38,126 nt of DNA from Flavobacteriales bacterium (GTDB lineage: Bacteria; Bacteroidota; Bacteroidia; CAIKAF01). Shown here piece after piece: positions 1,930 through 34,404 of the stretch (the first letter of the stretch is position 1; each line of letters opens with the position of its first letter). Under the pieces are notes generated by a model. That model saw only the letters and a program-made list of their open reading frames with translations. It was not told where the DNA came from and did not search any database. A program made the translations under genes and the position numbers. The DNA lies in assembly GCA_040376605.1 (NCBI GenBank), contig JBEIQI010000003.1, forward strand, positions 1 to 38,126, given 5' to 3'.

Positions 1930-1956
1930 CGCCAATCATAATTGAAGAACTGCTTT

Positions 1957-12023: not shown

Positions 12024-12024
12024 T

Positions 12025-12984: not shown

Positions 12985-12996
12985 TAAATTCCATAT

Positions 12997-20293: not shown

Positions 20294-20345
20294 AATACAA
20301 TAGTAGCCAAATGAAGTATAAATTCCCAAATAACAGAACATTAAG

Positions 20346-20377
20346 TTTGATTCGTATCCAATAATTAAATAAATTTG
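20346..20377 (+). promoter_or_regulatory. Complete Bacteroidota sigma70 promoter (-33 TTTG, -7 TAAATTTG)
   Basis: TTTG at 20346-20349, 20-nt spacer, TAAATTTG at 20370-20377; the ATG at 20382 follows after 4 nt. Confidence 0.65.
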
Positions 20378-20381
20378 AAGT

Positions 20382-21300: not shown

Positions 21301-21955
21301 CTAGGACCAATAATAAAACCTCTTTTTATCTAAAGAGATTCCCATAAATCCACCAAATGAAATTCTTGGATTTTTTCGCATAACCGTTTCAATTTTATGC
21401 CAAATATTACCTCCTTGAAAAATTATAATGTCACCCTTTCTCGGCCTAATTTTATCCTTAATAATATTGGGGTTGTCATTAACATACATTTTAGATCCGT
21501 CCGGCAGTATGATTTCATTACCTTCTGAAGGATTTACCATTTAAGTCCACTCCAAATTCCTGTTCAAATGTATCATGAAAGATTAAGTTGCTTTCAAAAT
21601 AAGCTTTAATCAGGGGGCAGCCCTCTGTTCACCAGAGTTTTCTTTAATTCCCCTCGAAAATTCTGCTAAAACAGCCGAATAAGTGAGACCTACAGATGTA
21701 TGGGCTGGATTGTAATTAATTACCTTGCTAATATTGGACATGATTGCATCGACCTCTGCTTCTGTTAAAACTGTTTCACCAAATAACCATCAGATACATT
21801 GGTTTACCAATTATATAATTCGTCCTTTTTTCCCACCAATTCCTTTAGCAATAGCTTTAAAATTATATGGTTCAGTTGTAAATTCTTGTCGATATTCATT
21901 ATCCTTAGGTATTTGGTTAAATCCAAATATTCCTTTTAATATTTTACTTAACTTT
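21301..21955 (-). pseudogene. Decayed 2OG-Fe(II) oxygenase gene
   Basis: Minus-strand fragments in shifting frames: KLSKILKGIFGF..., DGYLVKQF / LTEAEVDAIMSNI, AYFESNLIFHDTFEQEFGVDL, then an intact C-terminus GDIIIFQGGNIWHKIETV...PRISFGGF; internal stops and frameshifts; upstream boundary approximate. Confidence 0.65.
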
Positions 21956-21979
21956 TATAATATTAAATAAATCTACCGA

Positions 21980-23191
21980 TTAATTTTTTAATCTTTTGAT
22001 TTCCCATTCCAATCTCGGTGAGACAACAGTACTCATTTGATTAAAATAACCTTCATTACCAGTTTCTTGGGAAGAAGGGAGAATTTTAAAAGAAGTCATA
22101 TTATCCATTTGATCAACCAGTTCAAAAGACTTACTTATAATAAGTGAAAGATGATAAATACCTCTGGGAAGAAAATTGGCAGGGATCACACAACCCACCA
22201 AATACCTACCGGGCTGCGTGATTTTATCAAAGTCATAATTACTTCGTAGTGCAAATGAATCAAGAAAAATCCTAATACCATCCAAATTTGAAAGATAGAT
22301 TGCCAGCTCTAACGTACCGACTTCGGAAATTTTTTCAAAATCGAAAACTATTTCTATGGCTTCATCAACAAATAAAGGCCAAGAAGACTTTTCTCCAAGT
22401 GAAGAAATAGTTACTCCTTTCAAAAAAATAAAATCCAGAATGTTGCGATCAATTATTACCCTATCCTGCATTAAGTGTTCCCCTGCCAAATTTGATCCCC
22501 TTTGAGAAAATCCTTCGATATATTGTTCTATAACTACTATTGGTGGTCCTTCCATTCGTAGCAATCCATTATCAATCCAAATTGCCTTTGTGCAAAGCTC
22601 CAAAACCTGCGACATATTATGACTTACTAATACAATAGTTAATCCACTATTGGCCATAAATCGAAGCCTTGACATACATTTTTCCTTAAATTCATTATCC
22701 CCAACAGCAACTACCTCGTCTAATAAAAGGATTTGTGTATTGATGTGAACAGCAATCGAAAATGCCAATCTCAAATACATTCCGTTTGAGTAATTTCTTA
22801 CCGGCTCATGAATAAAACTTTCTATACCGCTAAAATGAATAATATCATTTATTTTTTCGTTCACCTCAATTTTAGACATTCCAAAAAGCGAGGCATTTAA
22901 AAAAATATTATCATACCCCGAAAGATCGGGATGAAATCCAGTTCCAATATCTAAAATCGAAACAACCACCCCATCAAACTTAACAGAACCTGAGCTTGGA
23001 GCGATTACATCACTTAAAATTTTTAACAAGGTACTTTTGCCGGCTCCATTTTTACCAACAATACCCAATATCTCACCACGCCTTAACTCAAAAGAAACAT
23101 CCTTTAAAGCCCAAAATGGTTCTTTTGAACCATTTAAAGAATATTTCTTTGAAATATTCTTTACTACTAATACCGGGTTTTGGTTGTCCAT
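21980..23191 (-). CDS. wzt: Polysaccharide ABC exporter ATP-binding subunit with a C-terminal carbohydrate-binding-type domain
   Basis: FWALKDVSF, Walker A GKNGAGKST, YSNGM, LLLDEVVAVGD, VSH; ~170 aa C-terminal extension. Confidence 0.92.
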   Translation of the reverse strand: MDNQNPVLVVKNISKKYSLNGSKEPFWALKDVSFELRRGEILGIVGKNGAGKSTLLKILSDVIAPSSGSVKFDGVVVSILDIGTGFHPDLSGYDNIFLNASLFGMSKIEVNEKINDIIHFSGIESFIHEPVRNYSNGMYLRLAFSIAVHINTQILLLDEVVAVGDNEFKEKCMSRLRFMANSGLTIVLVSHNMSQVLELCTKAIWIDNGLLRMEGPPIVVIEQYIEGFSQRGSNLAGEHLMQDRVIIDRNILDFIFLKGVTISSLGEKSSWPLFVDEAIEIVFDFEKISEVGTLELAIYLSNLDGIRIFLDSFALRSNYDFDKITQPGRYLVGCVIPANFLPRGIYHLSLIISKSFELVDQMDNMTSFKILPSSQETGNEGYFNQMSTVVSPRLEWEIKRLKN

Positions 23192-23198
23192 TCTCTAC

Positions 23199-24158
23199 TT
23201 ATAAATCACTTTCTTTCCATTTCTCCACCTGCATTAAATATAAATTCTGTAAGAAATATCTACTGTTCCCCGAAAAGATATCCATTGCTGGTTTAATAAG
23301 TTTCAATTCAAAAAAGTCAACCGGAAAAACATAATCTCTTAGATTCTCAATTTTATTAATGCCGGTTAACTCCTGAAATTCGTTCGATATTGTTAGGTTT
23401 TCAAATTCCTCCAAAGGAATATCAATCGTTTTTAAGGATGATAAAATATACCCTTTTTTCCGAACATGGTCGAGAATTGTATTCAAATCAGCAACATTGT
23501 ACCTGTACGCATTATTGATATTGTTGATCTCCACTTCAATGCCCTTTTCCATTCCCTTGTGCAATGCCTTCTTCCTAAACAAGTCCTTAATATAAATTAC
23601 GCCTCCTGGTTTTAAAACGTTCCAGGTGGAATCCAATACCTGAATATGGTTGGTTGCGTGCCCAAAAGATTCTAAAAAATAGATGGCATCAAAATGATTT
23701 TCAGGAAAATACTTTTCCAGGGTATGAAAATCTCCCTCTTGTACATTAATTAACATTGAGGCATTACTATCTTTGATATTATCCTTCGCCTTCTGCACCT
23801 GCACAGATGAAATGGTAAGTGCTTCTACTTGAACACCCACCTTTTCGGCAAAGTGAATTGCAGGCCCACAAACACCACAACCCGCATCCAACACAACCAT
23901 ACCCTTATCCAAACCAATAGCCTGTATTTGGTAATCGAGCAGAACAGAAACATCCGTTGTTCGAAATGCCTGAATTACCTTACCATAAACCTTTAAGAAA
24001 TTATCGGTTTGTTCATTATAAAATCTACCCACATCGCTTTGGTAGGATTTTACTGTATTGGATTTCGAAGATTCTTTTTTTAGCTTATAATAATACGCGA
24101 TTATGCTAAACAATAGCAATAGATTAACCGTAATTGACAATATTAAAAAAGCCCTCAT
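23199..24158 (-). CDS. Membrane-anchored class I SAM-dependent methyltransferase
   Basis: N-terminal TM helix; VLDAGCG, EGDFH, FDAIYFLESFGH, LKPGG (sterol/tocopherol/CFA methyltransferase-like pattern). Confidence 0.85.
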   Translation of the reverse strand: MRAFLILSITVNLLLLFSIIAYYYKLKKESSKSNTVKSYQSDVGRFYNEQTDNFLKVYGKVIQAFRTTDVSVLLDYQIQAIGLDKGMVVLDAGCGVCGPAIHFAEKVGVQVEALTISSVQVQKAKDNIKDSNASMLINVQEGDFHTLEKYFPENHFDAIYFLESFGHATNHIQVLDSTWNVLKPGGVIYIKDLFRKKALHKGMEKGIEVEINNINNAYRYNVADLNTILDHVRKKGYILSSLKTIDIPLEEFENLTISNEFQELTGINKIENLRDYVFPVDFFELKLIKPAMDIFSGNSRYFLQNLYLMQVEKWKESDL

Positions 24159-24218
24159 TTTTTATTTTCTATCAAATTCAATGGAGATATTTTTAAAAAA
24201 CATACTAAATAATCATTT

Positions 24219-24776
24219 TTATTTCTCTGTTAAGTTATAATTAATTTTGCAACCTATAGGTTCCGTTTCTTTAATATCTGGCCTCCTATTATTCAAAACT
24301 GCTATTATCGCATTTTCCAAATACTTTTCTGTTACAACATTCCTGTGCTTGCCTAAAGAATAATAATAATTATCAAACGCACCACTATAGACAACATTTT
24401 TAGCAGAATCTGTCAAAATGAATTGCGGTGTAGCTTTGACACTAAAATTCCTTGCCATCATCAAATCGGTATCATATATTACAGGAAGGTCAAAGTCATA
24501 ATCTTCCAGAGTTTTTTTTAAATACAATGTATCCGGAAAAGGATCAGAATAAACTGCTGTAACCGTTAATCCTTTAACTGCATATTCTTTACTCAATTCG
24601 CTGACCTTTTGAAAACTTGCTTTACAAGCGGGGCAATCAGGGATGAAAAAAAAATAACAACTCATCGCCTGAGCTTTCAAAGTATCTATGCTCCCACCTT
24701 TTGATACTTCCTTTGTCCTGTTACAAGAACTGAAAGAAATATTCAAAATTATTAATACCAAAATCCAGATTCTCAT
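24219..24776 (-). CDS. Redoxin (AhpC/TSA, thioredoxin-fold) lipoprotein
   Basis: Lipobox-like ISFSSC, CPAC, ATPQ, YSGAFDN, PIGC. Confidence 0.82.
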   Translation of the reverse strand: MRIWILVLIILNISFSSCNRTKEVSKGGSIDTLKAQAMSCYFFFIPDCPACKASFQKVSELSKEYAVKGLTVTAVYSDPFPDTLYLKKTLEDYDFDLPVIYDTDLMMARNFSVKATPQFILTDSAKNVVYSGAFDNYYYSLGKHRNVVTEKYLENAIIAVLNNRRPDIKETEPIGCKINYNLTEK

Positions 24777-24782
24777 GATGTA

Positions 24783-26201
24783 TTATTTCCGCAAAATTTC
24801 TGTAGGCTCAACCTGTTCATCACCCTTCCTATAAGCCGTAAACATTAAACTTAGCACCATCATTTCCTGATTGGAATAAGTGTCGTATTTTACATCTTGA
24901 ACCGGATTATTGGGTTGTACTGGATTATTTGCCGTATTATCGTAAACAGCGTTCATATAAATTGTAGACCCCCCAGGAATTACCGTTAATTTCCTTAACA
25001 GATAACTCCCCTGCCATAAATAATCCCAATCATTTATCTTTAGAATATTAATTTTTTTCAATTCCTTAGTGATCGCAAAAATTTCTATTTTTTTGGCCAA
25101 AAAATGCAAATGAGGAACACATCCAATCAATGAAATTGTAGAATCCGTATAAAAAGAAATTGTTTCCACCTTGATGGTATTTGCTGGAAAAAAAATCTCC
25201 AGATTGTTTAAAATTTCCCATTTAATTTCACGTTCTGGCCTTTTACTAAAAAAAACCTGCAAGCTTGTACGTTCTCTTTGCCCTTTGTTGCCTTCATCTC
25301 CGTAATGTGTTTGCAACAGCAGCTTAGATCCCTTTGGATAACGAAAGGCAAAGCCTTTGGTTAGTTGAGTTGGTACCATTCCTCTTGACCATGGTTCAAT
25401 AGGTATTAACTTATTAACTATTTCATCTTTCATACAATTCCAACACCCAGGTAATGAATTCAAAATCCCAAGTGTATCCATATATACCATTATATGATGA
25501 ATTGTACTTGGGTTCGATGAGTGAAATCTTATGGAATTAACAAATGTGTCAATCGGCAAATCAAGATCAACTACAAAACATTGGTAAGAGTCATCGTTTG
25601 AGTTTATAGTGTGCTCTTCAGTATAATAAGTTCGGCTGCCTCTTAAATTTTTTGTGGGCAAGAATTGTTGAATCCTGCTATCCTTCGAAAATTTGGGTGG
25701 CAAGGCACCCTGATCAATCCATTTCACAATAACCCATCTTAATGAATCATTAATCCTTGGAGCATTCATTAGTTCCGAATATGTGTCATCCGCCATCCAA
25801 GGTGGCATAACTCTCTCCATAAGAACATCTTTAATAACCGCAGATCTCTTAAGTATAGCCTCATAAGAATTTAAAACAAAAGGACCATTCCCATTTTCAC
25901 TATGACATGGTGTGCAATTATCAACGAATAGTGGGAAAACGTCAGAAAAATCCACAGGGCCATTTTCCCAGTTAGTATCAATTAATTTTCCTCGAGGATC
26001 AGCTAATCCATGATAATATTCCAATAATAATGCATTCTTGGCACTATCATTGTTAAATGTTGAAAAATCCCGAGTATTCTGTATATCCACATCTTTCTTA
26101 GATCCCAAATTACATGAGTACATTGCATAAAACACAATAAGCAAAGCGTAAAATCTAAAATAGATCCTAGTTATTTGAATCCTAGTACTTTCTTGAACCA
26201 T
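24783..26201 (-). CDS. Heme-c + copper type II monooxygenase (PHM/DBH-like) protein, probable lipoprotein
   Basis: CTPCH heme-binding motif, MPPW, HH (TIHHIM), QTHY, PHLH, WDYLWQ, YDNT..NP, EMM; start uncertain. Confidence 0.78.
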   Translation of the reverse strand: MVQESTRIQITRIYFRFYALLIVFYAMYSCNLGSKKDVDIQNTRDFSTFNNDSAKNALLLEYYHGLADPRGKLIDTNWENGPVDFSDVFPLFVDNCTPCHSENGNGPFVLNSYEAILKRSAVIKDVLMERVMPPWMADDTYSELMNAPRINDSLRWVIVKWIDQGALPPKFSKDSRIQQFLPTKNLRGSRTYYTEEHTINSNDDSYQCFVVDLDLPIDTFVNSIRFHSSNPSTIHHIMVYMDTLGILNSLPGCWNCMKDEIVNKLIPIEPWSRGMVPTQLTKGFAFRYPKGSKLLLQTHYGDEGNKGQRERTSLQVFFSKRPEREIKWEILNNLEIFFPANTIKVETISFYTDSTISLIGCVPHLHFLAKKIEIFAITKELKKINILKINDWDYLWQGSYLLRKLTVIPGGSTIYMNAVYDNTANNPVQPNNPVQDVKYDTYSNQEMMVLSLMFTAYRKGDEQVEPTEILRK

Positions 26202-27046
26202 TGTATTTTATTAGGTTGGCCATTTGTCAAAAATATAGAATTATACTGTTGGATGGTCAGATACTCTAATCTATCTTCCACCTTCGCAATCATTTCAAGT
26301 CCCTCCGGACCATTATTTGGATCCTTATCTAAAAAGAAATCTTCAGTTACCTTATAGGAGTTGATCTCCCCATCTTGACCATAATAAAGTTGCATGTTTT
26401 GGTTTTGGGGTATTATTCCACAAACAATTCCCAATCTCATTTTGTTGGTGTTGTTATTGGGAGATGCATGCACAAGGGCATGATCATACAAAAGGGCTTC
26501 GCCGGCCTTCATTGGCAAAGCTTCCAGGCTAGTCCAAACATGGGGTTCAATGTTTTTAAATAATGATGGAATTCCAGGACCACGATGGGTAAATATTTTA
26601 TTGTGACTTCCTGGTAAAACATAAACGGCACCATTCTCTACGGTTACATCAATCAATGGTATCCATAGATTGTAAGAACGGGTTATTCTTTCATCTACAA
26701 TATTCCAATCTTGATGTGGAGGCAGAAGTCCTTTGCCATTAGAGGGTTTTACAACAAAGGCACCACCTAGTAAATCATATCCACAAAAAAATTGTTCCAT
26801 TCTTTCGGCAACAGTTTTTTTAATGAAATTACTGGTCTCCCTCCTAAATGAATGATCAGGGGAATGAGTAGAAGAATAAAAATGATTGGGTTCCTCTTTT
26901 TGAACGTTCGTATAATAGGAGATGAGTTTTTCAAGATCATCCTTATTCAAAAATGGAAAAATAGTATAACCTCTCACGGCCAATTCTTCCGCAGCATTAA
27001 CATCTTTCGATATTTTACTTGCTTCAAATACTATCCTCTGATCCAT
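26171..27046 (-). CDS. PhyH-family Fe(II)/2-oxoglutarate dioxygenase
   Basis: HQDWNIVDE, WIPLID, VHASPNN...RLG; tail WFKKVLGFK. Confidence 0.88.
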   Translation of the reverse strand: MDQRIVFEASKISKDVNAAEELAVRGYTIFPFLNKDDLEKLISYYTNVQKEEPNHFYSSTHSPDHSFRRETSNFIKKTVAERMEQFFCGYDLLGGAFVVKPSNGKGLLPPHQDWNIVDERITRSYNLWIPLIDVTVENGAVYVLPGSHNKIFTHRGPGIPSLFKNIEPHVWTSLEALPMKAGEALLYDHALVHASPNNNTNKMRLGIVCGIIPQNQNMQLYYGQDGEINSYKVTEDFFLDKDPNNGPEGLEMIAKVEDRLEYLTIQQYNSIFLTNGQPNKIQWFKKVLGFK

Positions 27047-27936
27047 CCCATTATTTTTTTAGTGAGGCCTTGTTTAGGTATCAATTCCACGGATTTTGAT
27101 TCAACGCCGCTTTTAATTAACTCTTCGTTAGAAATACGAGGTAATTGAAATGGAACCACTCCCAAACTTCTTCCGATGGTAGGTCGTTGAAAAATAGATT
27201 GATGAAAATTCTCAAATTTGATTAAAAAATCGTCTTCTTGAGCAAACAACTCTATTTTATCGGGAGCTTCCTTGTCCCAATAATGGAATACCATAGGTGC
27301 CTCTTTTGATTTAATACCGGTGGTAATGGCGATTCGCATTTCATCGGTTCTATTTGGTTTAGAATAATGAATAATGGCCTGATTCAAAACAATGGCTTCA
27401 CCTGCTTTTGCAACAATCGGCATCAGCAATTTTTTTAATGACTCCTGATGTCCTTCATAATAAAAGGGTAAGGTGGGAGCTCTTAGAGATTGATGCCATG
27501 CATGACTTCCTTTTATCACTTCAATGGTTCCATTCATCTCATCAGTGTCTTGTAAAGGAGTCCAGATATTTACAGCCACATACTTTTTTTCATCTACGAT
27601 GGTCCAATCCTGATGCATGGGCATCTCGCTTCTAGGCCCGTTTCCTTTAGAAAGAAATGCAGATCCAAACCAAGTATAATGATTAAATATTTTTTCCAAA
27701 TTAGGTACAATGACTTGTCCAATTGCATCACTCATCCTCTTTTTAGCTGGAAAGTCATTTTCATAACTGGAAGAATAGAAATCCTGTGAAGGATTCGGAT
27801 AAAATTGTGCAAATAATGACCTAAGAGAATTAATATCCTCCTCCGAAATCAATGAAATCTTCACAAAACCATCTTCATCAAAACGTTTTTGTAAGAGTGG
27901 ATCATTAAAAATTGGAAGTATTTTTTCTACTATCAT
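27031..27936 (-). CDS. PhyH-family Fe(II)/2-oxoglutarate dioxygenase
   Basis: HQDWTIVDE, WTPLQD, IHYSKPN...RIA; tail GLTKKIMGWIRG. Confidence 0.88.
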   Translation of the reverse strand: MIVEKILPIFNDPLLQKRFDEDGFVKISLISEEDINSLRSLFAQFYPNPSQDFYSSSYENDFPAKKRMSDAIGQVIVPNLEKIFNHYTWFGSAFLSKGNGPRSEMPMHQDWTIVDEKKYVAVNIWTPLQDTDEMNGTIEVIKGSHAWHQSLRAPTLPFYYEGHQESLKKLLMPIVAKAGEAIVLNQAIIHYSKPNRTDEMRIAITTGIKSKEAPMVFHYWDKEAPDKIELFAQEDDFLIKFENFHQSIFQRPTIGRSLGVVPFQLPRISNEELIKSGVESKSVELIPKQGLTKKIMGWIRG

Positions 27937-28853
27937 GATCCTTTCTTATTTAAAAACAACCTTTCCCAAAAACCTTTTTTTACGCCTTTTTCTTCAACAG
28001 GCTGTTTTGGAACATAATTATATTCTTTGATCAAAAGTTCTGTATCAATCTTCGGGAAATCATAAGGTACATAACCTAAGGATTTTCCAATTGAAGGCCG
28101 ACTAAAAATATCATTCCCGAAATTCTGAAAATTCACCATAAAATCCTCGTCCTGATCGAACATTTCTATTTCTCCCCGTCGTTGTTTATCCCAATAGCAA
28201 ATTTTTATGGTTGCTTCCTTATGAGTTACAAAGGTATTTACAACTGGCCTCACTTCTTGGGATAGATTTGGAGGTGAATAATGAATTATGCTTTGATCGA
28301 AGACAATCGCCTGCCCAGCCTTTAAATAGCATGGCTGCATCAATGATTTTACCTCATTTACCATACCATCATAAATATCAGGTAAAGAAGAGCCACGATA
28401 TGTTCTAAAAAGTCGATGACTCCTTGGTAAAACTTCTATCGCTCCATTTTTTGAATCCAAATCAACTAAAGGAATCCAAATATTCGTGCCAGTATATTTC
28501 GTTTCATCCACCAATGTCATATCCTGATGAAGAATCAATTCGCTTTTTTCACCTGGTGCCTTGGCAATATAACTCCCACAATAGACCTTATAATCGGTAA
28601 AGAAATGTTCCAATCCGCGTCTCATCGTTAATTGGATCTCATCATCTACCTTTTTCCTGTAATCCGTATCTATTGCAAAAGTACTGGTATAAAATCCTGT
28701 AACCCCTTGTGGATGTAAATCATCAAAAAGTTGTTTAAGGTATTTTACTTCATCCATGTTTAAAAAGTCCAGTATAACATACCCTTCTGTATTGAACATA
28801 TTTTGAAGTTCAGGGTTGCTAAATATTCGTGCTTTGTTGTCGAAATTAATCAT
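27933..28853 (-). CDS. PhyH-family Fe(II)/2-oxoglutarate dioxygenase
   Basis: HQDMTLVDE, WIPLVD, IHYSPPN...RPV; tail KKGFWERLFLNKKGS. Confidence 0.88.
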   Translation of the reverse strand: MINFDNKARIFSNPELQNMFNTEGYVILDFLNMDEVKYLKQLFDDLHPQGVTGFYTSTFAIDTDYRKKVDDEIQLTMRRGLEHFFTDYKVYCGSYIAKAPGEKSELILHQDMTLVDETKYTGTNIWIPLVDLDSKNGAIEVLPRSHRLFRTYRGSSLPDIYDGMVNEVKSLMQPCYLKAGQAIVFDQSIIHYSPPNLSQEVRPVVNTFVTHKEATIKICYWDKQRRGEIEMFDQDEDFMVNFQNFGNDIFSRPSIGKSLGYVPYDFPKIDTELLIKEYNYVPKQPVEEKGVKKGFWERLFLNKKGS

Positions 28854-28857
28854 GTTC

Positions 28858-30747
28858 TTACTTCTTCGTTAATCGATGTTTAATTTCAGCAATGATATTT
28901 GTTGGGGTATAGATTTGAAAAAACCCTCTTTTAGAAGTCTCGTTGGTAATTAAAGGCTCTTCATTCAAACTGACATTTTGCTTGGGTTTCCCGTCCATAT
29001 TATAATGATACATTCCCGCCAATTCTTCCATCAATTCATTATTAAACTTTACGCCCGGGGTAGTACATATTAGTTGAGTAATCTCTTCTTTTGAAAACTC
29101 CTGTGCAATTTTTTTAAACGATTCGATTGCCTTCAGTTCATTCGGTTTAGTATTTGCATTATAATATTCCGACATTCTAGAATTATTATACAAGGGGAAA
29201 AATGCCGGTTCTACTTCGTACACTTCAATCCTTTCTTCATTACCAGGTAATTGATAATAATGTCTTAAACGAGCTTCCTTTTGCGTAATTCCAATTCCTG
29301 CAGCTATTCTTGATTTTCCAGAAATATTTGGAGGAGATGCATGAATGGTTTTATTATTAAAAATCAAAGCCTCACCAGCCTTCATGTCTATAACTTCTAC
29401 ATAAGGAAACAAATTAAATACATGATCTGATAATAATGACTTAGCTTGTGGAGAAGGAGAGGCCCTTGGGAAATTAAACAATTTATGACTCCCCCTAATA
29501 ATACCCAAAGCCCCATTGTTTTTATTTACGTCCATTAATGGAATCCAAACGGTGCCTGAGCAAAACTCCGTTTCGTCAACAAAACTCCAATCCTGATGTG
29601 GAGGTACGATATTTTCAAGCCCAGCCTCCTTTATTACGTAACTAGCAGTAAATGCCTGATAGTTCAACAAAAATGGACTTAACTTGGGTATAATGGTATC
29701 AAATAAAATTTTAAAAACACCATTTCTATAATCTGCACTTTTATTTTCCAGACTAATATGAAAACCATAATCTTTCACATGGTCATGGTTTAAAGATAAA
29801 TAATACTTCTTTAAAGTATTCACTTCATCATCATTCAATAAGGATAGCATAACAAATCCATCCCGATCAAATTTCTCCTGAATCGTTGAATCGCTGAACA
29901 AAGGTTGAGGTGTGAATTCGAGTGATCTTTGATGATTAATTTCATCCATTCGTTGAATAAATTCATCGGATTTTATTCGGTCACTTTTTTGCTGAATCAC
30001 CTCTAGAAGTTCTGCTTCCAAAGGTGCTTCTCCCTCATTAGAAAACGTAATAAAGAAGTCATCTTTAACCCTAAATTTTTGAAAAGTGTCCTTTTCCTTT
30101 TGATGATAAAAAATGAGATCAGCATCCTTGTGAACTAATCCAAAAGCCACCGCAATACGGGGCTTATCCGATTCATTTTTATTGGATCCATGAATGATCG
30201 ATTGATCAAATATAAAGGCCTCTCCCGCCTTCATATACAAGGTATGGGCAAGTTTATCTAGGGTGTCCTGAATATCCTTTAGATGATCAAAATTGCCTGG
30301 TCCTCTTTTGTATCTGGAAAATTCATGGCTTGAAGGAACCACCTTAATTGCTCCATTCGTTTCATTCGTTTCATTCAAACTAACCCAAACCGTTATACTT
30401 CGAAATTGATCCTCATCCACTACCGTCCAATCCTGATGAAAAGGCATGTGGCCTCCCTGGCCTTGATTCTTAACTAAAAACTGAGCCCCAAGCGTCTTAT
30501 AGTCAGAAAAATGTTGTTGTATAATGGGATCCAGAATTGAAATCAGACTATCATTAAGCCGTTTTTTTTTCTCTATATCCTTAACAAAAGTGCTTGAATA
30601 AAAATTTTCAGACCCCTCTGGAAAACTTTGATGATAAAGGTTATTCAACTTTACCACCGTTAATTCATCTAAAAGCTTTTTACGTAAAAAGCCATATTGC
30701 GTAAACCTTTCTGCATCCGAATGATATTTAAAAACATTATTCATCAT
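28858..30747 (-). CDS. Tandem two-domain PhyH-family dioxygenase
   Basis: Two complete motif sets: HQDWTVVDE...IHGSNKN...RIA and HQDWSFVDE...IHASPPN...RIA; 629 aa. Confidence 0.88.
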   Translation of the reverse strand: MMNNVFKYHSDAERFTQYGFLRKKLLDELTVVKLNNLYHQSFPEGSENFYSSTFVKDIEKKKRLNDSLISILDPIIQQHFSDYKTLGAQFLVKNQGQGGHMPFHQDWTVVDEDQFRSITVWVSLNETNETNGAIKVVPSSHEFSRYKRGPGNFDHLKDIQDTLDKLAHTLYMKAGEAFIFDQSIIHGSNKNESDKPRIAVAFGLVHKDADLIFYHQKEKDTFQKFRVKDDFFITFSNEGEAPLEAELLEVIQQKSDRIKSDEFIQRMDEINHQRSLEFTPQPLFSDSTIQEKFDRDGFVMLSLLNDDEVNTLKKYYLSLNHDHVKDYGFHISLENKSADYRNGVFKILFDTIIPKLSPFLLNYQAFTASYVIKEAGLENIVPPHQDWSFVDETEFCSGTVWIPLMDVNKNNGALGIIRGSHKLFNFPRASPSPQAKSLLSDHVFNLFPYVEVIDMKAGEALIFNNKTIHASPPNISGKSRIAAGIGITQKEARLRHYYQLPGNEERIEVYEVEPAFFPLYNNSRMSEYYNANTKPNELKAIESFKKIAQEFSKEEITQLICTTPGVKFNNELMEELAGMYHYNMDGKPKQNVSLNEEPLITNETSKRGFFQIYTPTNIIAEIKHRLTKK

Positions 30748-31664
30748 AATCCTTTCAATAAACCCATGGCCTTGTTTAATAATCCTGGAGTTTGATCAAA
30801 TCTTTTTCCCTTTAACCCTTTTAAAAATTCTTCATAGGTAAATGGATGATCTTTAAATTTGAGCACCTTCAATTCTCGTTTCCCATGAGGTTGTAACCAC
30901 GGATGAAACTCCATATAAAAACTCTGATCCGTTTCGAAAACATGCACTTTGTTTTTGTCTACTGTTCTGTCCAAATGATAATGAACCGGATGAGTGCATT
31001 TCGGGATTAGAATTAATTGAATGGTTAACCGTAATCCTGAGGTTTGGTTAATATTGCTATAATGAACAATGCTGTCATCTAAGATAACTCCCGTCCCGGC
31101 CTTCACATTCATCGGTGTCAGGTGCTTATTAATAATCTCTTGTTTAATCCCTTCTAATTCCCATGGGATAAGTGGCCCCCGCAGTCTGCCAAATTTCTTA
31201 TGACTTCCATCCACCATTTGTAAGGTGCCATTCTCTTCATTACTATCTACCAATGGGACCCAAATTGAAACTGATGTAAATTTATCCTCTTCTACGAATG
31301 CCCAATTTTGATGCAATGGAACTTCCCCTCCTCCCTCTTTCTTGCGGATATAATTGGCAATGATGGGTGTATAGTCGTTTAAATATTCATCAACTCGTTT
31401 TTGAAAGGCCTTGGTGATTATGTTAAATACCTTTTTCTTATACTCTGGATTTCGATCAATAAATGTAAAATCGTAGGTGATTTCACTTTCTGTTTTAAAA
31501 TCGGTATCGTTACTCGTTTTGGATCCACCGCTTTCCGGTAAAGTTTCAAAAAACATCTGTTTCAAATATTCGACCTCCGATGCATCCAAGAAGGGAACCT
31601 GAACGTAACCTTTCCTGTCAAACTCTTCCTGTAAGGATTTATAACGCAAAACAACGTTGGGCAT
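30744..31664 (-). CDS. PhyH-family dioxygenase with variant HQN iron motif
   Basis: HQNWAFVEE, WVPLVD, VHYSNIN...RLT; tail GLLNKAMGLLKGL. Confidence 0.85.
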   Translation of the reverse strand: MPNVVLRYKSLQEEFDRKGYVQVPFLDASEVEYLKQMFFETLPESGGSKTSNDTDFKTESEITYDFTFIDRNPEYKKKVFNIITKAFQKRVDEYLNDYTPIIANYIRKKEGGGEVPLHQNWAFVEEDKFTSVSIWVPLVDSNEENGTLQMVDGSHKKFGRLRGPLIPWELEGIKQEIINKHLTPMNVKAGTGVILDDSIVHYSNINQTSGLRLTIQLILIPKCTHPVHYHLDRTVDKNKVHVFETDQSFYMEFHPWLQPHGKRELKVLKFKDHPFTYEEFLKGLKGKRFDQTPGLLNKAMGLLKGL

Positions 31665-31677
31665 AAAATTTAAGGTG

Positions 31678-32496
31678 TTAAAGTCTTTCCACTATTTGTT
31701 TTTCAAATTTAACGAAAAAAACCAAGGAAATGAATAGCAACAATAAGGTGGCCGCAAAAACTAAAATTGCCCCTATTGAAATCCCGGCTCCTTCAAATAA
31801 CGCTCCTCGAAGTCCTTCTACAGCCGTGGCAAGAGGATTTATGTATTTAATATATATCTGAAACCGAGTCGGAATAATTGAAACGGGATAGAATACTGGA
31901 GTTAGCCAAATTCCAAAGTTCATGATAAACGGTAAAATGTGCAGGACGTCGCGAAAACGAACAATCATTATACTCAATAAAATGGCCACACTTAAAGAAA
32001 AAAGCACCGCCTCTAAAATAAAAAATAAGGCTATTAAAATATTTAATCCCAATGGGGTTTGATTAATTAAAATCATCACTATTAAAACCAAAAAGAGCAT
32101 CACGCTTTCAATTAATACTGGAAATGACTTTGCAACAATAATAATCAATCGAGGAAAAGATACTTTGGAGATTAATTCCGTAGATTCTAACAACGCAACG
32201 CTACCCTTAGAAACAATGCCGGTGAAAATATACCATATAACCAATCCGCTAAAAACAAACTGAATGTATGGAATATTTTTCGTGTCAATTTTAATCAAAT
32301 AATTAAAGAATATAGAATAAATAACCACGGCAACTAGCGGCTGAATGATCATCCAGCCAACACCTAAAACAGCCCTAGAATATTTTACCTTCAGCTCTCT
32401 GTTAGCGAGTGACCTTAATAAAAAGCCGTATGCCTTCAACCTTTTTATATAGGCGACCAAAGTATAAGGCCTATTGTTAATTTCCTTTTGGCTCAT
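31678..32496 (-). CDS. wzm: Polysaccharide ABC exporter permease (ABC-2 type)
   Basis: RELKVKYSRAVLGVGWMIIQPL, KVSFPR, RFRD, TPVFYP, NPL. Confidence 0.92.
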   Translation of the reverse strand: MSQKEINNRPYTLVAYIKRLKAYGFLLRSLANRELKVKYSRAVLGVGWMIIQPLVAVVIYSIFFNYLIKIDTKNIPYIQFVFSGLVIWYIFTGIVSKGSVALLESTELISKVSFPRLIIIVAKSFPVLIESVMLFLVLIVMILINQTPLGLNILIALFFILEAVLFSLSVAILLSIMIVRFRDVLHILPFIMNFGIWLTPVFYPVSIIPTRFQIYIKYINPLATAVEGLRGALFEGAGISIGAILVFAATLLLLFISLVFFVKFEKQIVERL

Positions 32497-33448
32497 ACGC
32501 TTTAATACGCTTGGGTTTACGTTGTATTATCCAATTACCAATTAATACCGGTGGGTATTTTATATAATAATTAACTAATCGATAGTTAGATTTATTCAGA
32601 TCAAAAGCAATAGGGGTCGGAATTTTAAAAAATTGAGAATATACCTTACTAAAAATCGGTATGTCCATAAAGAAAAATATTGACCAAGGAAATCTTAATA
32701 ACTGAAGCCAAAAAACATATGCTCTTTCAGAAGTATTCAATAGTTTCCGTTCTCGTTTTACCAAGGATCTGCATTCTCCCAGATATTCGTTCCCAAATGT
32801 TTTAGATACCTGATTCTCATTTCTATGACGAAACCCGGCCAGGTTACTCAAAACCGTATAAAGCTTTTCCCGACGGAAAAATCTTGTCCATAATTCCATG
32901 TCCCCGGCATACTTGATGTTATGGTCCATTTTGCTTCCAGCCATCTCCCAAACATGCCTTCTCCAAAAGCTAGATTCCTGCTGTATATATTGAAAATCAT
33001 TTGTTAAATACCTATACTTTGACCAGCGGGCCCAAGGTAAAGCAATTCGATTGATGGAAGAACCCTTTTCATTAAACTCGCCAGGAATTCCCATCAACCA
33101 ATTTACCTGCGGTAATTGGGTAAAAACATCCGCTACCGTTTGAAATGAATTGGGCAAATATTTATCATCCGAATTAATCCAAGCCATAATATCGCCGGTA
33201 CACATATTGAGCCCCTTTTCAACGGCATAGTATTGCCCTTTATCCTTTGCACTTTCCCAATAACTTAGTTGACCCTCATATTTCTTGATAATCTCAACAC
33301 TGTTATCCGTACTTCCACCATCAATGATGATATATTCTAAATTTGGGTAATTTTGACTTAAAACCGATTGAATGGTTTCTTCCAAATATTTTCCCTGATT
33401 ATAACTAATGGTAACAATGGATATTTTAGGTAAACTTTCCAATAGCAT
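32477..33448 (-). CDS. Glycosyltransferase family 2 (WcaE-like)
   Basis: ISIVTISYNQ, IDGGSTD, DKGQ, WINSDD. Confidence 0.9.
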   Translation of the reverse strand: MLLESLPKISIVTISYNQGKYLEETIQSVLSQNYPNLEYIIIDGGSTDNSVEIIKKYEGQLSYWESAKDKGQYYAVEKGLNMCTGDIMAWINSDDKYLPNSFQTVADVFTQLPQVNWLMGIPGEFNEKGSSINRIALPWARWSKYRYLTNDFQYIQQESSFWRRHVWEMAGSKMDHNIKYAGDMELWTRFFRREKLYTVLSNLAGFRHRNENQVSKTFGNEYLGECRSLVKRERKLLNTSERAYVFWLQLLRFPWSIFFFMDIPIFSKVYSQFFKIPTPIAFDLNKSNYRLVNYYIKYPPVLIGNWIIQRKPKRIKAYEPKGN

Positions 33449-34374: not shown

Positions 34375-34404
34375 AATAAATGTCCGTTGGTATTTCTCAT
34401 TATA

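What the first reader, a model, noticed from the sequence alone, without database searches (positions are those of the whole stretch)
21301..33448. Candidate new system: oxygenase-rich tailoring cassette between wzm and wzt of a glycan ABC exporter
Seen: one minus-strand run with overlapping or very short junctions: GT2, wzm, five PhyH genes (6 domains), heme-c/Cu monooxygenase, redoxin, membrane methyltransferase, wzt, 2OG-oxygenase remnant. About 8.5 kb and 8 genes separate wzm from wzt. Known: wzm and wzt are usually adjacent, and polysaccharide loci normally carry few or no Fe/2OG oxygenases. Inference: the exported glycan or glycolipid, or its acyl/prenyl part, is oxidatively tailored in several steps and methylated before or after export. 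I do not recognise this as a described pathway.
Basis: partly seen in the sequence, partly recalled or inferred. Interest (0 to 1): 0.88.

Follow-up and report, generated by a model that had tools for sequence, protein, structure and literature searches.

The report
Oxygenase array inside a glycan exporter
A freshwater Flavobacteriales bacterium carries a gene cassette, shared with many uncultured Bacteroidota, in which a row of iron/2-oxoglutarate oxygenases and a methyltransferase sits between the two halves of a sugar-polymer export pump, pointing to an undescribed, oxygen-dependent way of decorating a surface glycan or glycolipid.

Summary
On the minus strand, 33448 to 21980, eleven genes run with junctions of -31 to +60 bp: GT2, Wzm, five PhyH genes (six domains), a haem-c/copper monooxygenase, a redoxin, a membrane-anchored methyltransferase and Wzt. 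A decayed WelO5-like oxygenase gene follows. All 8 PhyH matches of the 3.17-Mb genome lie in this window. The order Wzm-P1-P34-P5-P6-P7-(MT)-(Wzt) recurs in Bacteroidota MAGs: Wzm lies within 3 kb upstream in 43 of 64 testable loci, and the full collinear form occurs in 12 of 43. A UbiA prenyltransferase and the methyltransferase co-occur with the double PhyH genome-wide (14 of 14 and 13 of 14 carriers, against 18 and 5 of 286 non-carriers). The C-terminal domain of Wzt folds like the cap-binding domains of O-antigen Wzt proteins. The copper monooxygenase and redoxin are a strain-specific 2.3-kb insertion, not part of the core. Most likely the oxygenases modify a lipid-linked glycoconjugate in the cytoplasm, the methyltransferase caps it, and WzmWzt exports it. 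Whether the target is sugar or prenyl lipid is open. I found no published description. It is a new variant of a known kind.

The parts
32477..33448 (-). GT2 glycosyltransferase, first gene of the tight run (GT2_A)
   Evidence: PF00535 E 1.9e-27. It overlaps wzm by 20 bp. An orthologue sits upstream of wzm in L019 and L028.
31678..32496 (-). Wzm, ABC-2 permease of a glycan exporter
   Evidence: PF01061 E 3.4e-17. Best NCBIfam hits are galactan Wzm/RfbD and KpsM, both below cut-off. Five hydrophobic segments by a Kyte-Doolittle scan. Directly adjacent to the PhyH array in related loci.
30744..31664 (-). PhyH oxygenase P1, a conserved H-x-N variant of the iron site
   Evidence: PF05721 E 4.6e-19. 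HQN in place of HQD. In the orthogroup alignment of 61 rows, window protein included, 59 are ungapped at the motif: HQN 41, HEN 18, none with Asp.
28858..30747 (-). Fused double PhyH oxygenase (P34), 629 aa, the marker of the cassette
   Evidence: Two PF05721 stretches, E 3.1e-40. HQD in both halves. 164 relatives in genome contigs.
27933..28853 (-). PhyH oxygenase P5
   Evidence: PF05721 E 1.2e-15. HQD. P34>P5 adjacency in 64 of 80 loci.
27031..27936 (-). PhyH oxygenase P6
   Evidence: PF05721 E 3e-18. P5>P6 adjacency in 57 of 80 loci.
26171..27046 (-). PhyH oxygenase P7
   Evidence: PF05721 E 1.3e-20. P6>P7 adjacency in 35 and P7>MT in 17 of 80 loci.
24783..26201 (-). Haem-c / type II copper monooxygenase-like lipoprotein (accessory insertion)
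   Evidence: Weak Pfam hit. 62 proteins with E <= 1e-5, the query itself included; many carry PF01082/PF03712/PF14376. Invariant CxxCH, HH, H, HxH and M in 20 aligned sequences. Lipoprotein-like N-terminus. Missing from contigs of close strains.
24219..24776 (-). Redoxin (CPAC) lipoprotein, partner of the copper monooxygenase (accessory insertion)
   Evidence: PF08534 E 1.1e-10. CPAC motif and ..SSC signal. Monooxygenase-redoxin fusions P0052, P0054 and P0057.
23199..24158 (-). SAM methyltransferase with one N-terminal membrane anchor; candidate capping enzyme
   Evidence: PF08241 E 9.5e-15. Hydrophobic segment at 3-21. Nearest solved relatives are MitM, 3bus and a D-glucose O-methyltransferase. 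MT>Wzt adjacency in 16 of 80 loci. Present in 13 of 14 genomes that carry the double PhyH.
21980..23191 (-). Wzt: ABC ATPase plus a C-terminal carbohydrate-binding-domain fold
   Evidence: PF00005 E 5e-21. TagH and galactan Wzt are the best NCBIfam hits. The full model's top matches are full-length A. aeolicus Wzt. The C-terminal domain alone best matches Wzt CBDs 6o14, 8dky, 2r5o and 5hno.
21301..21924 (-). Pseudogene of a WelO5-like (HxG-type) Fe/2OG enzyme
   Evidence: PF22814 E 1.1e-20 for the last 79 aa. tblastn with 12 intact orthologues finds N- and C-terminal parts, a frame change and a missing core.
20382..21248 (+). PhyH oxygenase Pb
   Evidence: PF05721 E 3.5e-20. Orthologues lie beside the WelO5-like gene in L021, L023, L026 and L027.
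18671..20464 (-). Asparagine-synthase-like amidotransferase
   Evidence: PF13537 and PF00733. TIGR01536 below cut-off. Recurs in L023, L026, L027 and L090.
17402..18514 (-). GDSL-like hydrolase/acyltransferase with an N-terminal anchor
   Evidence: PF13472 E 5.4e-05, below cut-off. Conserved beside UbiA in L023-L025 and L029-L031.
16385..17416 (+). PhyH oxygenase Pa
   Evidence: PF05721 E 1.1e-18. Lies next to wzm in L021-L026.
15128..16144 (-). UbiA-family prenyltransferase
   Evidence: PF01040 E 3.3e-11. Found in 14 of 14 other carriers of the double PhyH against 18 of 286 non-carriers. Fused to GT4 in relatives.
14022..15131 (-). GT4 glycosyltransferase, overlapping UbiA by 4 bp
   Evidence: PF00534 E 1.4e-36. 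UbiA-GT4 fusions of 750 and 754 aa in L013 and L018.
8754..14025 (.). GT2-like 625-aa protein (-), UDP-glucose dehydrogenase (+), NAD epimerase (+) and an unnamed 342-aa protein (-)
   Evidence: Pfam. The same module lies beside GT4-UbiA-GDSL in L023-L025.
33505..36978 (.). Unnamed 289-aa protein (+), PseH-like GNAT (-), GT2_B (-) and FabH-like KAS III (-)
   Evidence: Pfam and NCBIfam. The module FabH-GT2_B-GNAT-unk289 recurs upstream of wzm in L019, L028, L040, L048, L082 and L085.

Best explanation
The region is the core of a conserved Bacteroidota system for making and exporting a glycoconjugate. A glycan is built in the cytoplasm on a lipid carrier by the locus's GT2 and GT4 enzymes and its nucleotide-sugar genes. 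The soluble PhyH-type Fe(II)/2-oxoglutarate oxygenases have no signal peptides. They oxidise several distinct C-H positions of that lipid-linked product, on its sugars or their substituents. There are six domains in the run and two more genes nearby, 21-29% identical to P1, each with its own orthogroup. The membrane-anchored SAM methyltransferase encoded next to wzt adds a terminal methyl cap. The C-terminal carbohydrate-binding domain of Wzt recognises the finished end, and WzmWzt moves the product across the inner membrane. In this strain only, a lipoprotein pair of haem-c/copper monooxygenase and redoxin could add an oxidation after export.

Shown here: gene content, conserved order, genome-level co-occurrence, intact iron sites, the CBD fold, and the insertion polymorphism. 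Inferred: the substrate, the cap, the order of steps, and every chemical outcome.
For: Tight run with six intact PhyH domains: HQD..H in five of them and in Pa and Pb, HQN..H in P1. All 8 PhyH matches of the genome are in this locus.

Conserved order across orders of Bacteroidota: P1>P34 in 55, P34>P5 in 64, P5>P6 in 57 and P6>P7 in 35 of 80 loci. Wzm lies directly beside the array (Wzm>P1 32, Wzm>P34 18, P1>Wzm 5). P7>MT in 17 and MT>Wzt in 16. Wzm lies within 3 kb upstream in 43 of 64 loci with enough flank. In 43 loci with at least 8 kb on both sides, Wzm or Wzt is within 10 kb in 33, and the full collinear Wzm..MT..Wzt form occurs in 12.

Genome level, in a class sample of 301 genomes: the methyltransferase is in 13 of 14 other carriers of the double PhyH against 5 of 286 non-carriers. 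Wzm lies within 3 kb of the double PhyH in 12 of 14.

Glycan character: Wzt is nearest to TagH and galactan Wzt. Its C-terminal domain folds like the Wzt CBDs that bind methyl or Kdo caps (passages of PMC9445017). The methyltransferase's nearest solved relatives include sugar O-methyltransferases. UDP-Glc dehydrogenase, an epimerase, DegT, a PseH-like GNAT and four GTs are in the window.

Precedent: PhyH-like oxygenases work on assembled oligosaccharides in orthosomycin pathways (passages of PMC13374393), and EvdO2, SnoK and SnoN are among the nearest solved relatives.
Against: No chemistry, expression or genetics is available. No RNA run was listed, and no locus title among the 80 kept names a cultured strain: 79 are labelled MAG, and L096 carries no such label.

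Linkage is not universal. 10 of 43 well-flanked loci show neither Wzm nor Wzt within 10 kb. Some Chitinophagales loci (L083, L088, L095) hold 10-13 PhyH-family ORFs with UbiA and methyltransferases but no window-type glycosyltransferase, and housekeeping genes flank the two that were Pfam-checked (L083, L088).

Similarity to sugar-acting oxygenases is remote (E 1e-8 to 1e-14) and no better than to PHYHD1, MysH or PhyH itself.

The NCBIfam family of carbohydrate-cluster 2OG oxygenases, TIGR04324, is hit only below its cut-off (48.7 against 150 bits).

Sugar carbons already carry oxygen, so many hydroxylations of a plain glycan are chemically less obvious than of an alkyl, prenyl or acyl part.

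The cap role of the methyltransferase rests on adjacency and analogy only.
Confidence: 0.45

Rival explanations
1. Same system, different target. The oxygenases hydroxylate an isoprenoid (or acyl) lipid part that the UbiA prenyltransferase installs. The product is a prenyl-anchored, poly-oxygenated and methylated glycolipid, loosely like a phosphoglycolipid natural product. The ABC-2 pump exports that lipid-rich molecule.
For: The window's UbiA type is present in 14 of 14 other genomes with the double PhyH against 18 of 286 without it. MT>UbiA adjacency occurs in 14 of 80 loci. UbiA is fused to GT4 in L013 and L018 and overlaps GT4 by 4 bp in the window. L083, L088 and L095 hold UbiA, methyltransferases and 10-13 PhyH-family ORFs with no window-type GT in 22 kb. 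Unactivated C-H bonds of an isoprenoid are classic substrates of this enzyme family (established knowledge of phytanoyl-CoA hydroxylase). The methyltransferase also hits cyclopropane and mycolic-acid lipid methyltransferase models (PF02353 E 1.2e-12).
Against: The UbiA protein matches no characterised prenyltransferase closely. Its best solved relative is chlorophyll synthase at E 1.6e-3, and NCBIfam hits are all below cut-off. In the window UbiA lies about 13 kb from the array, whereas wzm is embedded in it. The Wzt CBD fold matches carbohydrate-cap binders better (TM 0.6-0.72) than the lipid-binding beta-sandwiches NPC2 and GM2 activator (TM 0.43-0.46).
Confidence: 0.27
2. The cluster makes a diffusible, heavily tailored oligosaccharide or glycolipid (a secondary metabolite such as an antibiotic or signal) rather than a cell-surface polymer. 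Wzm/Wzt serves as its efflux and self-protection pump.
For: The distribution is patchy, as for accessory clusters: 15 of 301 genomes and 6 of 168 genera in the class, and 4 of 8 and 5 of 8 within two genera. Related loci carry tailoring enzymes typical of natural-product sugar chemistry: B12-radical SAM in 13 and SPASM radical SAM in 17 of 80 loci, carbamoyltransferase in 4, a P450, and a WelO5-like HxG enzyme. Orthosomycin pathways combine PhyH-like oxygenases with many methyltransferases.
Against: A CBD-bearing Wzt is so far known from capped, polyprenol-linked polymers (passages of PMC9445017). Patchy distribution and allele swapping at the MT-Wzt end are just as typical of O-antigen loci. 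No resistance or regulatory gene was recognised in the window.
Confidence: 0.13
3. The oxygenases and radical SAM enzymes modify a ribosomal peptide (RiPP), with the ABC-2 pump as its exporter. The sugar genes are for glycosylating it, or are merely neighbours.
For: SPASM and B12 radical SAM enzymes, several hydroxylases, a methyltransferase, an Asn-synthase-like protein (a weak hit to lasso cyclases, E 1.1e-14 and below cut-off) and an ABC exporter are a RiPP-like set.
Against: The window has no radical SAM gene and no leader peptidase. Intergenic space inside the run is at most 60 bp, so there is no room for a precursor gene there. I ran no dedicated search for small precursor ORFs outside the run. 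The transporter is of the TagH/Wzt type with a carbohydrate-binding domain, and nucleotide-sugar enzymes and four GTs are part of the conserved modules.
Confidence: 0.05
4. The genes are neighbours without a common job. A catabolic or stress-related set of PhyH oxygenases was inserted by chance into a variable glycan locus.
For: Glycan loci are hot spots of insertion. The copper monooxygenase and redoxin in this very run are such an insertion.
Against: The same order around wzm recurs in loci whose titles name Flavobacteriales, Chitinophagales, Saprospiraceae and Sphingobacteriales, at 35-48% protein identity apart from the same-genus locus (65%). The methyltransferase and UbiA track the double PhyH across genomes. 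Junctions overlap.
Confidence: 0.05

Closest known systems
Cap-dependent WzmWzt O-antigen export (A. aeolicus; E. coli O9a and R. terrigena O12, these two names recalled for entries 2r5o and 5hno)
   Same: An ABC-2 permease plus an ATPase whose C-terminal jelly-roll domain recognises a terminal cap, for example 3-O-methyl-mannose. Here the Wzt model aligns over 408 columns with full-length A. aeolicus Wzt. The isolated domain's best matches are 6o14, 8dky, 2r5o and 5hno. A methyltransferase is encoded next to wzt. Mechanism from passages of PMC9445017.
   Different: wzm and wzt are split by 8 genes, six of the encoded domains being Fe/2OG oxygenases. The methyltransferase is a small, single-anchor class I enzyme, not a WbdD-type kinase-methyltransferase (WbdD architecture is recalled). 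The CBD has no detectable sequence similarity to solved ones. The cap is unknown.
Orthosomycin oxygenases EvdO1/EvdO2/AviO1/HygX and nogalamycin SnoK/SnoN
   Same: PhyH-like Fe/2OG enzymes that act on sugars of an assembled glycoside, several per pathway, together with methyltransferases. EvdO2, SnoK and SnoN are among the nearest solved relatives (E 4.6e-11 to 1.5e-6). HygX carries an HxG iron-site variant, as the WelO5-like gene of this cluster family does (passages of PMC13374393).
   Different: Those are actinomycete antibiotics, with no Wzm/Wzt and no UbiA. Similarity is remote and no closer than to PHYHD1 or MysH. No orthoester or methylenedioxy chemistry is shown here.
Xanthomonas LPS cassettes holding PhyH-family genes
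   Same: One or two 'phytanoyl-CoA dioxygenase family' genes lie inside LPS cassettes, in papers that also discuss wzm and wzt (passage of bioRxiv 10.1101/2022.03.02.482478). XAC3597 is listed as PhyH-like in a biofilm mutant table (passage of PMC3130047).
   Different: One or two copies, not an ordered array of five to thirteen. Their function is untested there as well. I did not compare the sequences.
NCBIfam TIGR04324 'sporadic carbohydrate cluster 2OG-Fe(II) oxygenase'
   Same: It is the best NCBIfam hit for 5 of the 6 PhyH proteins scanned, and second for the other (27031-27936). It names 2OG oxygenases found in carbohydrate clusters.
   Different: All scores are far below the family cut-off (17-49 against 150 bits), so these proteins are not members.
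Moenomycin-type phosphoglycolipid pathways (enzyme roles recalled, not verified)
   Same: By recall: a prenyl-ether lipid plus an oligosaccharide with uronamide, carbamate and C-methyl groups, made with Asn-synthase-like amidotransferases, a carbamoyltransferase, a B12 radical SAM methylase, GTs and ABC pumps. That resembles the accessory set seen here.
   Different: The only paper found calls moenomycin a phosphoglycolipid but gave no enzyme roles in the passages read. Its prenyltransferases are not UbiA-type (recalled), and no PhyH array is known there.
WelO5 carrier-protein-independent halogenase family (PF22814)
   Same: The remnant matches profile positions 199-277 of 277. All 12 intact orthologues from related loci have H-[C/S]-G and a distal His.
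   Different: The window copy is broken. An HxG site can also belong to an oxidative cyclase such as HygX, so halogenation is not implied.

Membership tests
PhyH (PF05721) Fe(II)/2OG oxygenases | Domain score above Pfam's gathering cut-off (22 bits) | tested here: met
   All seven genes (eight domains) score 58.8-139.2 bits. Eight matches over the cut-off in the genome search.
PhyH (PF05721) Fe(II)/2OG oxygenases | HxD/E...H iron-binding triad | tested here: met
   HQD plus a distal His in 7 of 8 domains, conserved in the orthogroups. The exception is P1; see the next row.
PhyH (PF05721) Fe(II)/2OG oxygenases | Carboxylate ligand in P1 (30744-31664) | tested here: not met
   HQN in the window. 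Of the 59 ungapped rows of the 61-row orthogroup alignment (window protein included), 41 have HQN, 18 HEN and none Asp. The distal His and the invariant Arg (R212) are kept. Activity cannot be judged from sequence.
Polysaccharide ABC exporter Wzm/Wzt | ABC-2 permease plus ABC ATPase of the TagH/Wzt/RfbE kind | tested here: met
   PF01061 and PF00005 above cut-off. Best NCBIfam hits are TagH and galactan Wzt (E 6e-54, 1.7e-52) and galactan Wzm (E 7.3e-15). Foldseek top hits are WzmWzt structures.
Polysaccharide ABC exporter Wzm/Wzt | Score above the cut-off of a named NCBIfam equivalog (galactan Wzt, TagH, KpsM) | tested here: not met
   178 against 400, 169.5 against 320 and 36.4 against 300 bits. 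It is not an equivalog of any of these.
Cap-dependent (CBD-bearing) Wzt subclass | C-terminal jelly-roll carbohydrate-binding domain | tested here: met
   AF2 model of residues 239-403, pLDDT 87.6. Best Foldseek matches are Wzt CBDs 6o14, 8dky, 2r5o and 5hno, E 1e-6 to 9e-5, TM 0.57-0.72. No sequence-level match.
Cap-dependent (CBD-bearing) Wzt subclass | A chain-terminating enzyme that makes the cap, and a cap bound by the CBD | not testable with these tools
   A methyltransferase is encoded next to wzt here and in 16 of 80 loci. This is suggestive only.
WelO5-like Fe/2OG halogenases (PF22814) | Full-length domain with an HxG...H site | tested here: not met
   In the window only N- and C-terminal pieces remain, with a frame change, and the HxG core is missing. 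Intact orthologues elsewhere have HxG (12 of 12).
Copper type II monooxygenases (PHM/DBH-like) | Pfam PF01082/PF03712 above cut-off | tested here: not met
   The window protein scores 14.5 against 30 bits. Precomputed Pfam lists PF01082 and/or PF03712 for many of its 61 homologues.
Copper type II monooxygenases (PHM/DBH-like) | Two copper sites, HH..H and HxH..M | tested here: met
   H235, H236, H299, H364, H366 and M447 are invariant in 20 aligned homologues, as are C96, C99 and H100 (CxxCH). Assigning these residues to the two copper sites is by recall of PHM.
Decaprenyl-phosphate phosphoribosyltransferase-type UbiA | Detectable similarity to that subfamily | tested here: inconclusive
   NCBIfam and PDB searches returned only generic prenyltransferase and chlorophyll synthase hits. 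Whether that subfamily is represented in either library was not checked.

The most novel reading that the evidence does not exclude
Bacteroidota have a so far unseen class of envelope glycoconjugate. Its lipid anchor is made by a UbiA-GT4 enzyme pair rather than on the usual undecaprenyl carrier. Its glycan and/or prenyl part is then rewritten by an ordered set of five to thirteen dedicated Fe/2OG oxygenases, including a carboxylate-less HxN enzyme and an HxG halogenase- or cyclase-like one. The result is poly-hydroxylated, keto, acetal/orthoester-bridged or halogenated units. The modified, methyl-capped end serves as the export ticket read by the Wzt CBD. Surface chemistry would then depend directly on O2 supply.
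Probability: 0.2. Interest if true: 0.85.

Novelty: new variant of a known kind. Interest (0 to 1): 0.62.

Why it matters
ABC-transporter-dependent glycan pathways are textbook systems, and in them tailoring is mostly acetyl, methyl, phosphate or Kdo. A conserved, ordered array of Fe/2OG oxygenases wedged into the exporter operon would add oxidative C-H chemistry to the known repertoire of surface-glycan or glycolipid modification. So far that chemistry is known from actinomycete antibiotics.

The double PhyH that marks the cassette has 164 relatives among 185,579 species genomes, and 79 of the 80 loci kept are from uncultured Bacteroidota. The stretch examined here is held by 20 runs of 17 freshwater, lake, river and drinking-water studies. 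Its product may therefore be a common but uncharacterised envelope component that affects phage and grazer recognition.

It also offers a set of divergent, probably regio-specific oxygenases, including natural HxN and HxG iron-site variants, and a new CBD specificity for study.

Tried and rejected
- Halogenase reading of the PhyH genes: rejected. They have HxD (or HxN), not HxA/G. Only the separate WelO5-like gene family has HxG.
- DPPR-synthase reading of UbiA: no support.
- Sigma-70 promoter and terminator scan of 20000-37500: 71 promoter-like sites against 70.5 expected, and 8 terminator-like against 10.8 expected, so it says nothing.
- Search for the Bacteroidota-type TAnnTTTG motif (motif recalled) within 200 nt upstream of six starts: one hit only, 34 nt before the copper monooxygenase start, and none before GT2_A, FabH, GNAT, MT or Wzt. 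The operon start is not defined.
- Expression: no RNA holder listed, so co-transcription could not be examined. In the four runs laid, parts of 21670-26000 had little or no cover.
- Sequence search of the Wzt C-terminal domain against PDB: nothing meaningful (best E 0.35). The fold search was needed.
- Wzm as a phylogenetic marker: useless, since 189 of 301 genomes match.
- ESM Atlas on the unnamed 289-aa protein (33505-34374): only unnamed Bacteroidota clusters, one auto-named 'putative sulfotransferase'. Left unexplained.
- Moenomycin comparison: the one paper found gave no enzyme roles in the passages read, so the analogy rests on recall.
- Literature: four searches found no description of a PhyH array in a wzm/wzt locus. 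A search for HxN iron sites returned only listings, among them abstracts on AspH as an oxygenase with an unusual iron site. Supplementary files were not opened; the supplementary tables of the Xanthomonas preprint might bear on PhyH genes in LPS loci.
- Complex prediction was not used, because no protein-protein binding is claimed.

Full report
**What is there.** The window is low-GC (0.31-0.45 per kb). From 33448 down to 21980 on the minus strand lie eleven ORFs with junctions of -20, 13, -4, 4, -4, -16, -31, 6, 60 and 7 bp. Pfam names them as follows:
- GT2 (32477-33448)
- ABC-2 permease, Wzm (31678-32496)
- PhyH (30744-31664; P1)
- a 629-aa protein with two PhyH stretches (28858-30747; P34)
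- three more PhyH proteins (27933-28853, P5; 27031-27936, P6; 26171-27046, P7)
- a 472-aa protein with only weak hits (24783-26201)
- a redoxin (24219-24776)
- a class I SAM methyltransferase (23199-24158)
- an ABC ATPase of 403 aa, Wzt (21980-23191)

After a 439-bp gap comes a 79-aa ORF (21301-21540) that matches the last 79 positions of the WelO5 profile (E 1.1e-20). Two further PhyH genes lie on the plus strand at 20382-21248 (Pb) and 16385-17416 (Pa). A search of the whole 3.17-Mb, 379-contig assembly finds 8 PhyH matches, all in this window.

**The individual parts.**
- The eight PhyH domains are only 21-29% identical to P1, so they are old paralogues and not recent copies. Seven have H-Q-D and a distal His. 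P1 has H-Q-N. In the P1 orthogroup alignment of 61 rows (window protein included), 59 are ungapped at the motif: 41 have HQN, 18 have HEN and none has Asp, while the distal His is kept in all 61. None has a hydrophobic segment or signal peptide, so they should work in the cytoplasm.
- The methyltransferase has one N-terminal hydrophobic segment (residues 3-21) and a VLDAGCG motif. Its nearest solved relatives are MitM, 3bus (RebM by recall), a D-glucose O-methyltransferase and phosphoethanolamine N-methyltransferases.
- The 472-aa protein and the redoxin both start with lipoprotein-like signals (..YSC..SSC), and the redoxin has CPAC. The search with the 472-aa protein returned 62 proteins, itself included. 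Many of the 61 others carry PF01082, PF03712 or the haem-binding PF14376, three are fused to a redoxin domain (P0052, P0054, P0057) and eleven carry a T9SS sorting domain. In 20 aligned members CxxCH, HH, H, HxH and M are invariant. By recall this is the ligand set of peptidylglycine-monooxygenase-type copper enzymes.
- The remnant is a pseudogene. tblastn with 12 intact orthologues finds residues about 18-120 at 21619-21924 and a short piece in another frame. There is no match to about 100 core residues, and then comes the C-terminus at 21304-21537. All 12 intact orthologues have H-[C/S]-G, the carboxylate-less site of halogenases. The orthoester-forming HygX has the same variant (passages of PMC13374393), so chemistry cannot be read from the motif.

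- *Near relatives.* Among 40 relatives the double PhyH is found strongly in three: one of three same-genus genomes (G002, 66% identity) and two genomes of other families (38%). One further match is weak, and 0 of 21 other genomes of the same family have it.
- *Order in those genomes.* In G002 the order is FabH-GT2-GNAT-unk289-GT2-Wzm-P1-P34-P6-P7-MT-Wzt. In G027 it is Wzm-P1-P34-P5-P6-P7-MT-(B12 radical SAM on the other strand)-Wzt-Pb-Pa-UbiA::GT4. In G037 the array runs off the contig end after MT.
- *Species genomes.* A scan of 185,579 species genomes with an alignment of the double PhyH gave 187 pattern matches and 164 confirmed relatives. The best 80 were kept (L019-L098). Of these, 79 are labelled MAG, and the titles are mostly Chitinophagales, Flavobacteriales, Saprospiraceae or plain 'Bacteroidetes'; two carry other labels.
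- *Annotation method.* I annotated the ORFs with profiles built from the window's proteins and their orthologues.
- *Direct same-strand neighbours over the 80 loci, many of them truncated:* P1>P34 55, P34>P5 64, P5>P6 57, P6>P7 35, Wzm>P1 32, Wzm>P34 18, P1>Wzm 5, P7>MT 17, MT>Wzt 16, MT>UbiA 14, UbiA>GT4 8.
- *Flank-limited counts.* Of 64 loci with at least 3 kb upstream, 43 have Wzm within 3 kb on the same strand. Of 43 loci with at least 8 kb on both sides, the numbers with each gene within 10 kb are: Wzm 30, methyltransferase 22, Wzt 20, UbiA 15, the WelO5-like gene 12. 33 have Wzm or Wzt, and 12 show the full collinear Wzm..MT..Wzt form. 10 have neither Wzm nor Wzt (L036-38, L053, L054, L057, L071, L083, L088, L095). 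PhyH ORFs per locus range from 1 to 13, with a median of 5.

So linkage of the array to wzm is strong and old. Linkage to wzt and MT is frequent but looser.

**Genome-level co-occurrence.** In an even sample of 301 genomes of the class (own genome included), the double PhyH occurs in 15, from 6 of 168 genera; two genera have it in 4 of 8 and 5 of 8 genomes. The window's UbiA type (E <= 1e-15) is in all 14 other carriers and in 18 of 286 non-carriers. The methyltransferase (E <= 1e-30) is in 13 of 14 carriers (not G113) and in 5 of 286 non-carriers, and all five of those also have the UbiA. Related genomes are not independent, so these are descriptions and not tests. Wzm-like genes are in 189 of 301 genomes and do not discriminate, but one lies within 3 kb of the double PhyH in 12 of the 14 carriers. 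Many UbiA matches lie in ORFs of about 760 aa. Pfam confirms UbiA-GT4 fusions in L013 (750 aa) and L018 (754 aa). In the window the two genes overlap by 4 bp.

**The wider locus.** The modules GDSL-UbiA-GT4-epimerase-unk342-UDP-Glc dehydrogenase-GT2long and FabH-GT2-GNAT-unk289-GT2 also recur (L023-L025, L029-L031; L019, L028, L040, L048, L082, L085). So roughly 8.7-37 kb of the window belongs together. Families absent from the window but recurrent in the 80 loci are SPASM radical SAM (17 loci), B12 radical SAM (13), an SDR (7), Asp/Arg-hydroxylase-like (5), carbamoyltransferase (4) and multihaem cytochromes (4). A P450 fusion and a DprE1-like flavoprotein were seen once each.

**The exporter.** Wzt's best NCBIfam hits are teichoic-acid TagH and galactan Wzt, both below their equivalog cut-offs. 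An AlphaFold model built on an 18-sequence alignment (pLDDT 85.1) shows an all-beta domain after residue 244. Its best Foldseek matches are the full-length, CBD-bearing A. aeolicus Wzt chains (8dku_A, E 4e-34, 408 columns), ahead of NBD-only entries. Modelled alone (pLDDT 87.6), the domain's best matches are the A. aeolicus Wzt CBD (6o14; 8dky with 3-O-methyl-mannose), 2r5o and 5hno/5hnp, at TM 0.57-0.72. Lipid-binding sandwiches such as NPC2 follow at TM 0.43-0.46. Passages of PMC9445017 state that CBD-bearing transporters export only polymers whose non-reducing end carries a cap (methyl, phosphomethyl or Kdo), which the CBD recognises. The methyltransferase beside wzt is thus a natural candidate for the capping enzyme. 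This is inference.

**The copper monooxygenase and redoxin are accessory.** Only L021 among the 80 loci has them, in the same position. G002 and G027 lack them. The stretch 23000-32900 is held at about half of its words by 20 runs of 17 freshwater, lake, river and drinking-water studies. I laid contigs of four of these runs on 19000-35000. In two of them (X3, X19) a contig joins 24024 to 26287, which places the methyltransferase directly after P7. None of the four covers 24874-25941 appreciably. The same X3 contig differs at 60 of 5315 positions over 26287-31601 but at 151 of 1071 over 22677-23747. The PhyH array is therefore nearly identical among these strains, while the MT-Wzt end is a diverged allele. 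This mosaic is typical of surface-glycan loci.

**What it most likely does.** The pump is of the glycan-exporting, cap-reading kind. The oxygenases are cytoplasmic, and wzm is embedded in their array. Nucleotide-sugar genes and GTs belong to the conserved modules. Together these favour oxidation of a lipid-linked glycoconjugate before export, then capping by the methyltransferase, then export. Remote relatives that act on sugars exist (EvdO2, SnoK, SnoN), but PHYHD1, MysH and PhyH score as well or better, so similarity does not name the substrate.

The main rival keeps the same system but puts the oxygen into a prenyl or acyl part installed by UbiA. The perfect genome-level tie to UbiA, the UbiA-GT4 fusion, and the Chitinophagales loci with UbiA, methyltransferases and up to 13 PhyH-family ORFs but no window-type GT in 22 kb speak for it (L083, L088 and L095; the flanks of L083 and L088 were Pfam-checked). 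I put 0.45 on the glycan reading and 0.27 on the lipid reading. The remainder is divided among a secreted natural product (0.13), a RiPP (0.05) and unrelated neighbours (0.05).

**Novelty.** PhyH-family genes inside wzm/wzt LPS cassettes are mentioned for Xanthomonas, as one or two genes of untested function. NCBIfam has a family of 2OG oxygenases from 'sporadic carbohydrate clusters', which these proteins hit only below cut-off. Four full-text searches found no description of an ordered multi-oxygenase array within a glycan exporter operon. The library lacks most subscription journals, and I opened no supplements. I class this as a new variant of a known kind: an ABC-transporter-dependent, cap-recognising glycan pathway with an unprecedented oxidative tailoring block and a UbiA-GT4 partner.

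**Limits.** There is no expression data, no chemistry and no carrier labelled as cultured among the 80 loci. Orthogroup labels come from best profile hits, not trees. 

Noticed in passing
window 30744-31664 (-); orthologues in L019-L098: The first oxygenase of the array (P1) has Asn where the iron-binding Asp/Glu should be. Among the 59 ungapped rows of the orthogroup alignment (window protein included), 41 have HQN, 18 HEN and none Asp, and the distal His and Arg are kept. The first half of the double PhyH also has HQN in 12 of 56 full-length orthologues. It is a conserved carboxylate-less variant of unknown consequence.
   Followed up: partly
window 21301-21924 (-); L021:21389-22357, L023:17360-18334 and others: Related loci carry an intact WelO5-like gene with an H-[C/S]-G halogenase-type iron site (12 of 12). 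In the window it is a pseudogene with the core deleted. A contig of a close strain (run X3) holds about 1.68 kb of its own sequence between window positions 21439 and 22677 (1.24 kb apart in the window), so that strain differs in this region; its sequence could not be read.
   Followed up: partly
window 14022-16144 (-); L013:17529-19781; L018:601-2865: UbiA prenyltransferase and GT4 glycosyltransferase overlap by 4 bp in the window and are fused into one protein of about 750 aa in other genomes. This suggests a prenyl-transfer and glycosyl-transfer couple of unknown product.
   Followed up: partly
window 22677-31601, against contigs of runs X3 and X19: There is a sharp break in identity between close strains at the P7/methyltransferase boundary: about 99% over the PhyH array and about 80-86% over MT-Wzt. 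This suggests recombination that swaps the cap and export end.
   Followed up: no
P0052, P0054, P0057; P0032-P0049 (homologues of window 24783-26201): The haem-c/copper monooxygenase family occurs fused to a redoxin domain (3 of the 62 proteins returned) or with a T9SS sorting domain (11 of the 62). It looks like an extracytoplasmic redox module of Bacteroidota and relatives with no assigned substrate.
   Followed up: no
window 4068-6620 (-) and 37294-38124 (-); L013:2-5236, L016:3-4553, L053, L061, L077: Large proteins with a T9SS C-terminal sorting domain flank the locus in the window and sit next to the cassette in several other genomes. This may be chance in a T9SS-rich phylum, or a hint of a link to secreted-protein anchoring.
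   Followed up: no
window 18671-20464 (-) against 20382-21248 (+): The longest ORF of the Asn-synthase-like gene overlaps the start of the opposite-strand PhyH gene by 83 bp and begins with about 60 odd residues. Its true start is probably further in, and no N-terminal Cys typical of glutamine-hydrolysing enzymes is evident.
   Followed up: no
window 155-4008: At the left edge of the window lie an FAD/amine-oxidase-like oxidoreductase (541 aa), a fatty-acid-desaturase-family protein and a DegT aminotransferase. Whether the first two belong to the locus was not examined.
   Followed up: no
L018:2941-6977 (G037): Next to the UbiA-GT4 fusion in G037 lie an LMF1-like membrane protein and a 732-aa protein with a P450 domain, followed by PhyH genes. 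This adds further oxidative enzymes to the family of clusters.
   Followed up: no
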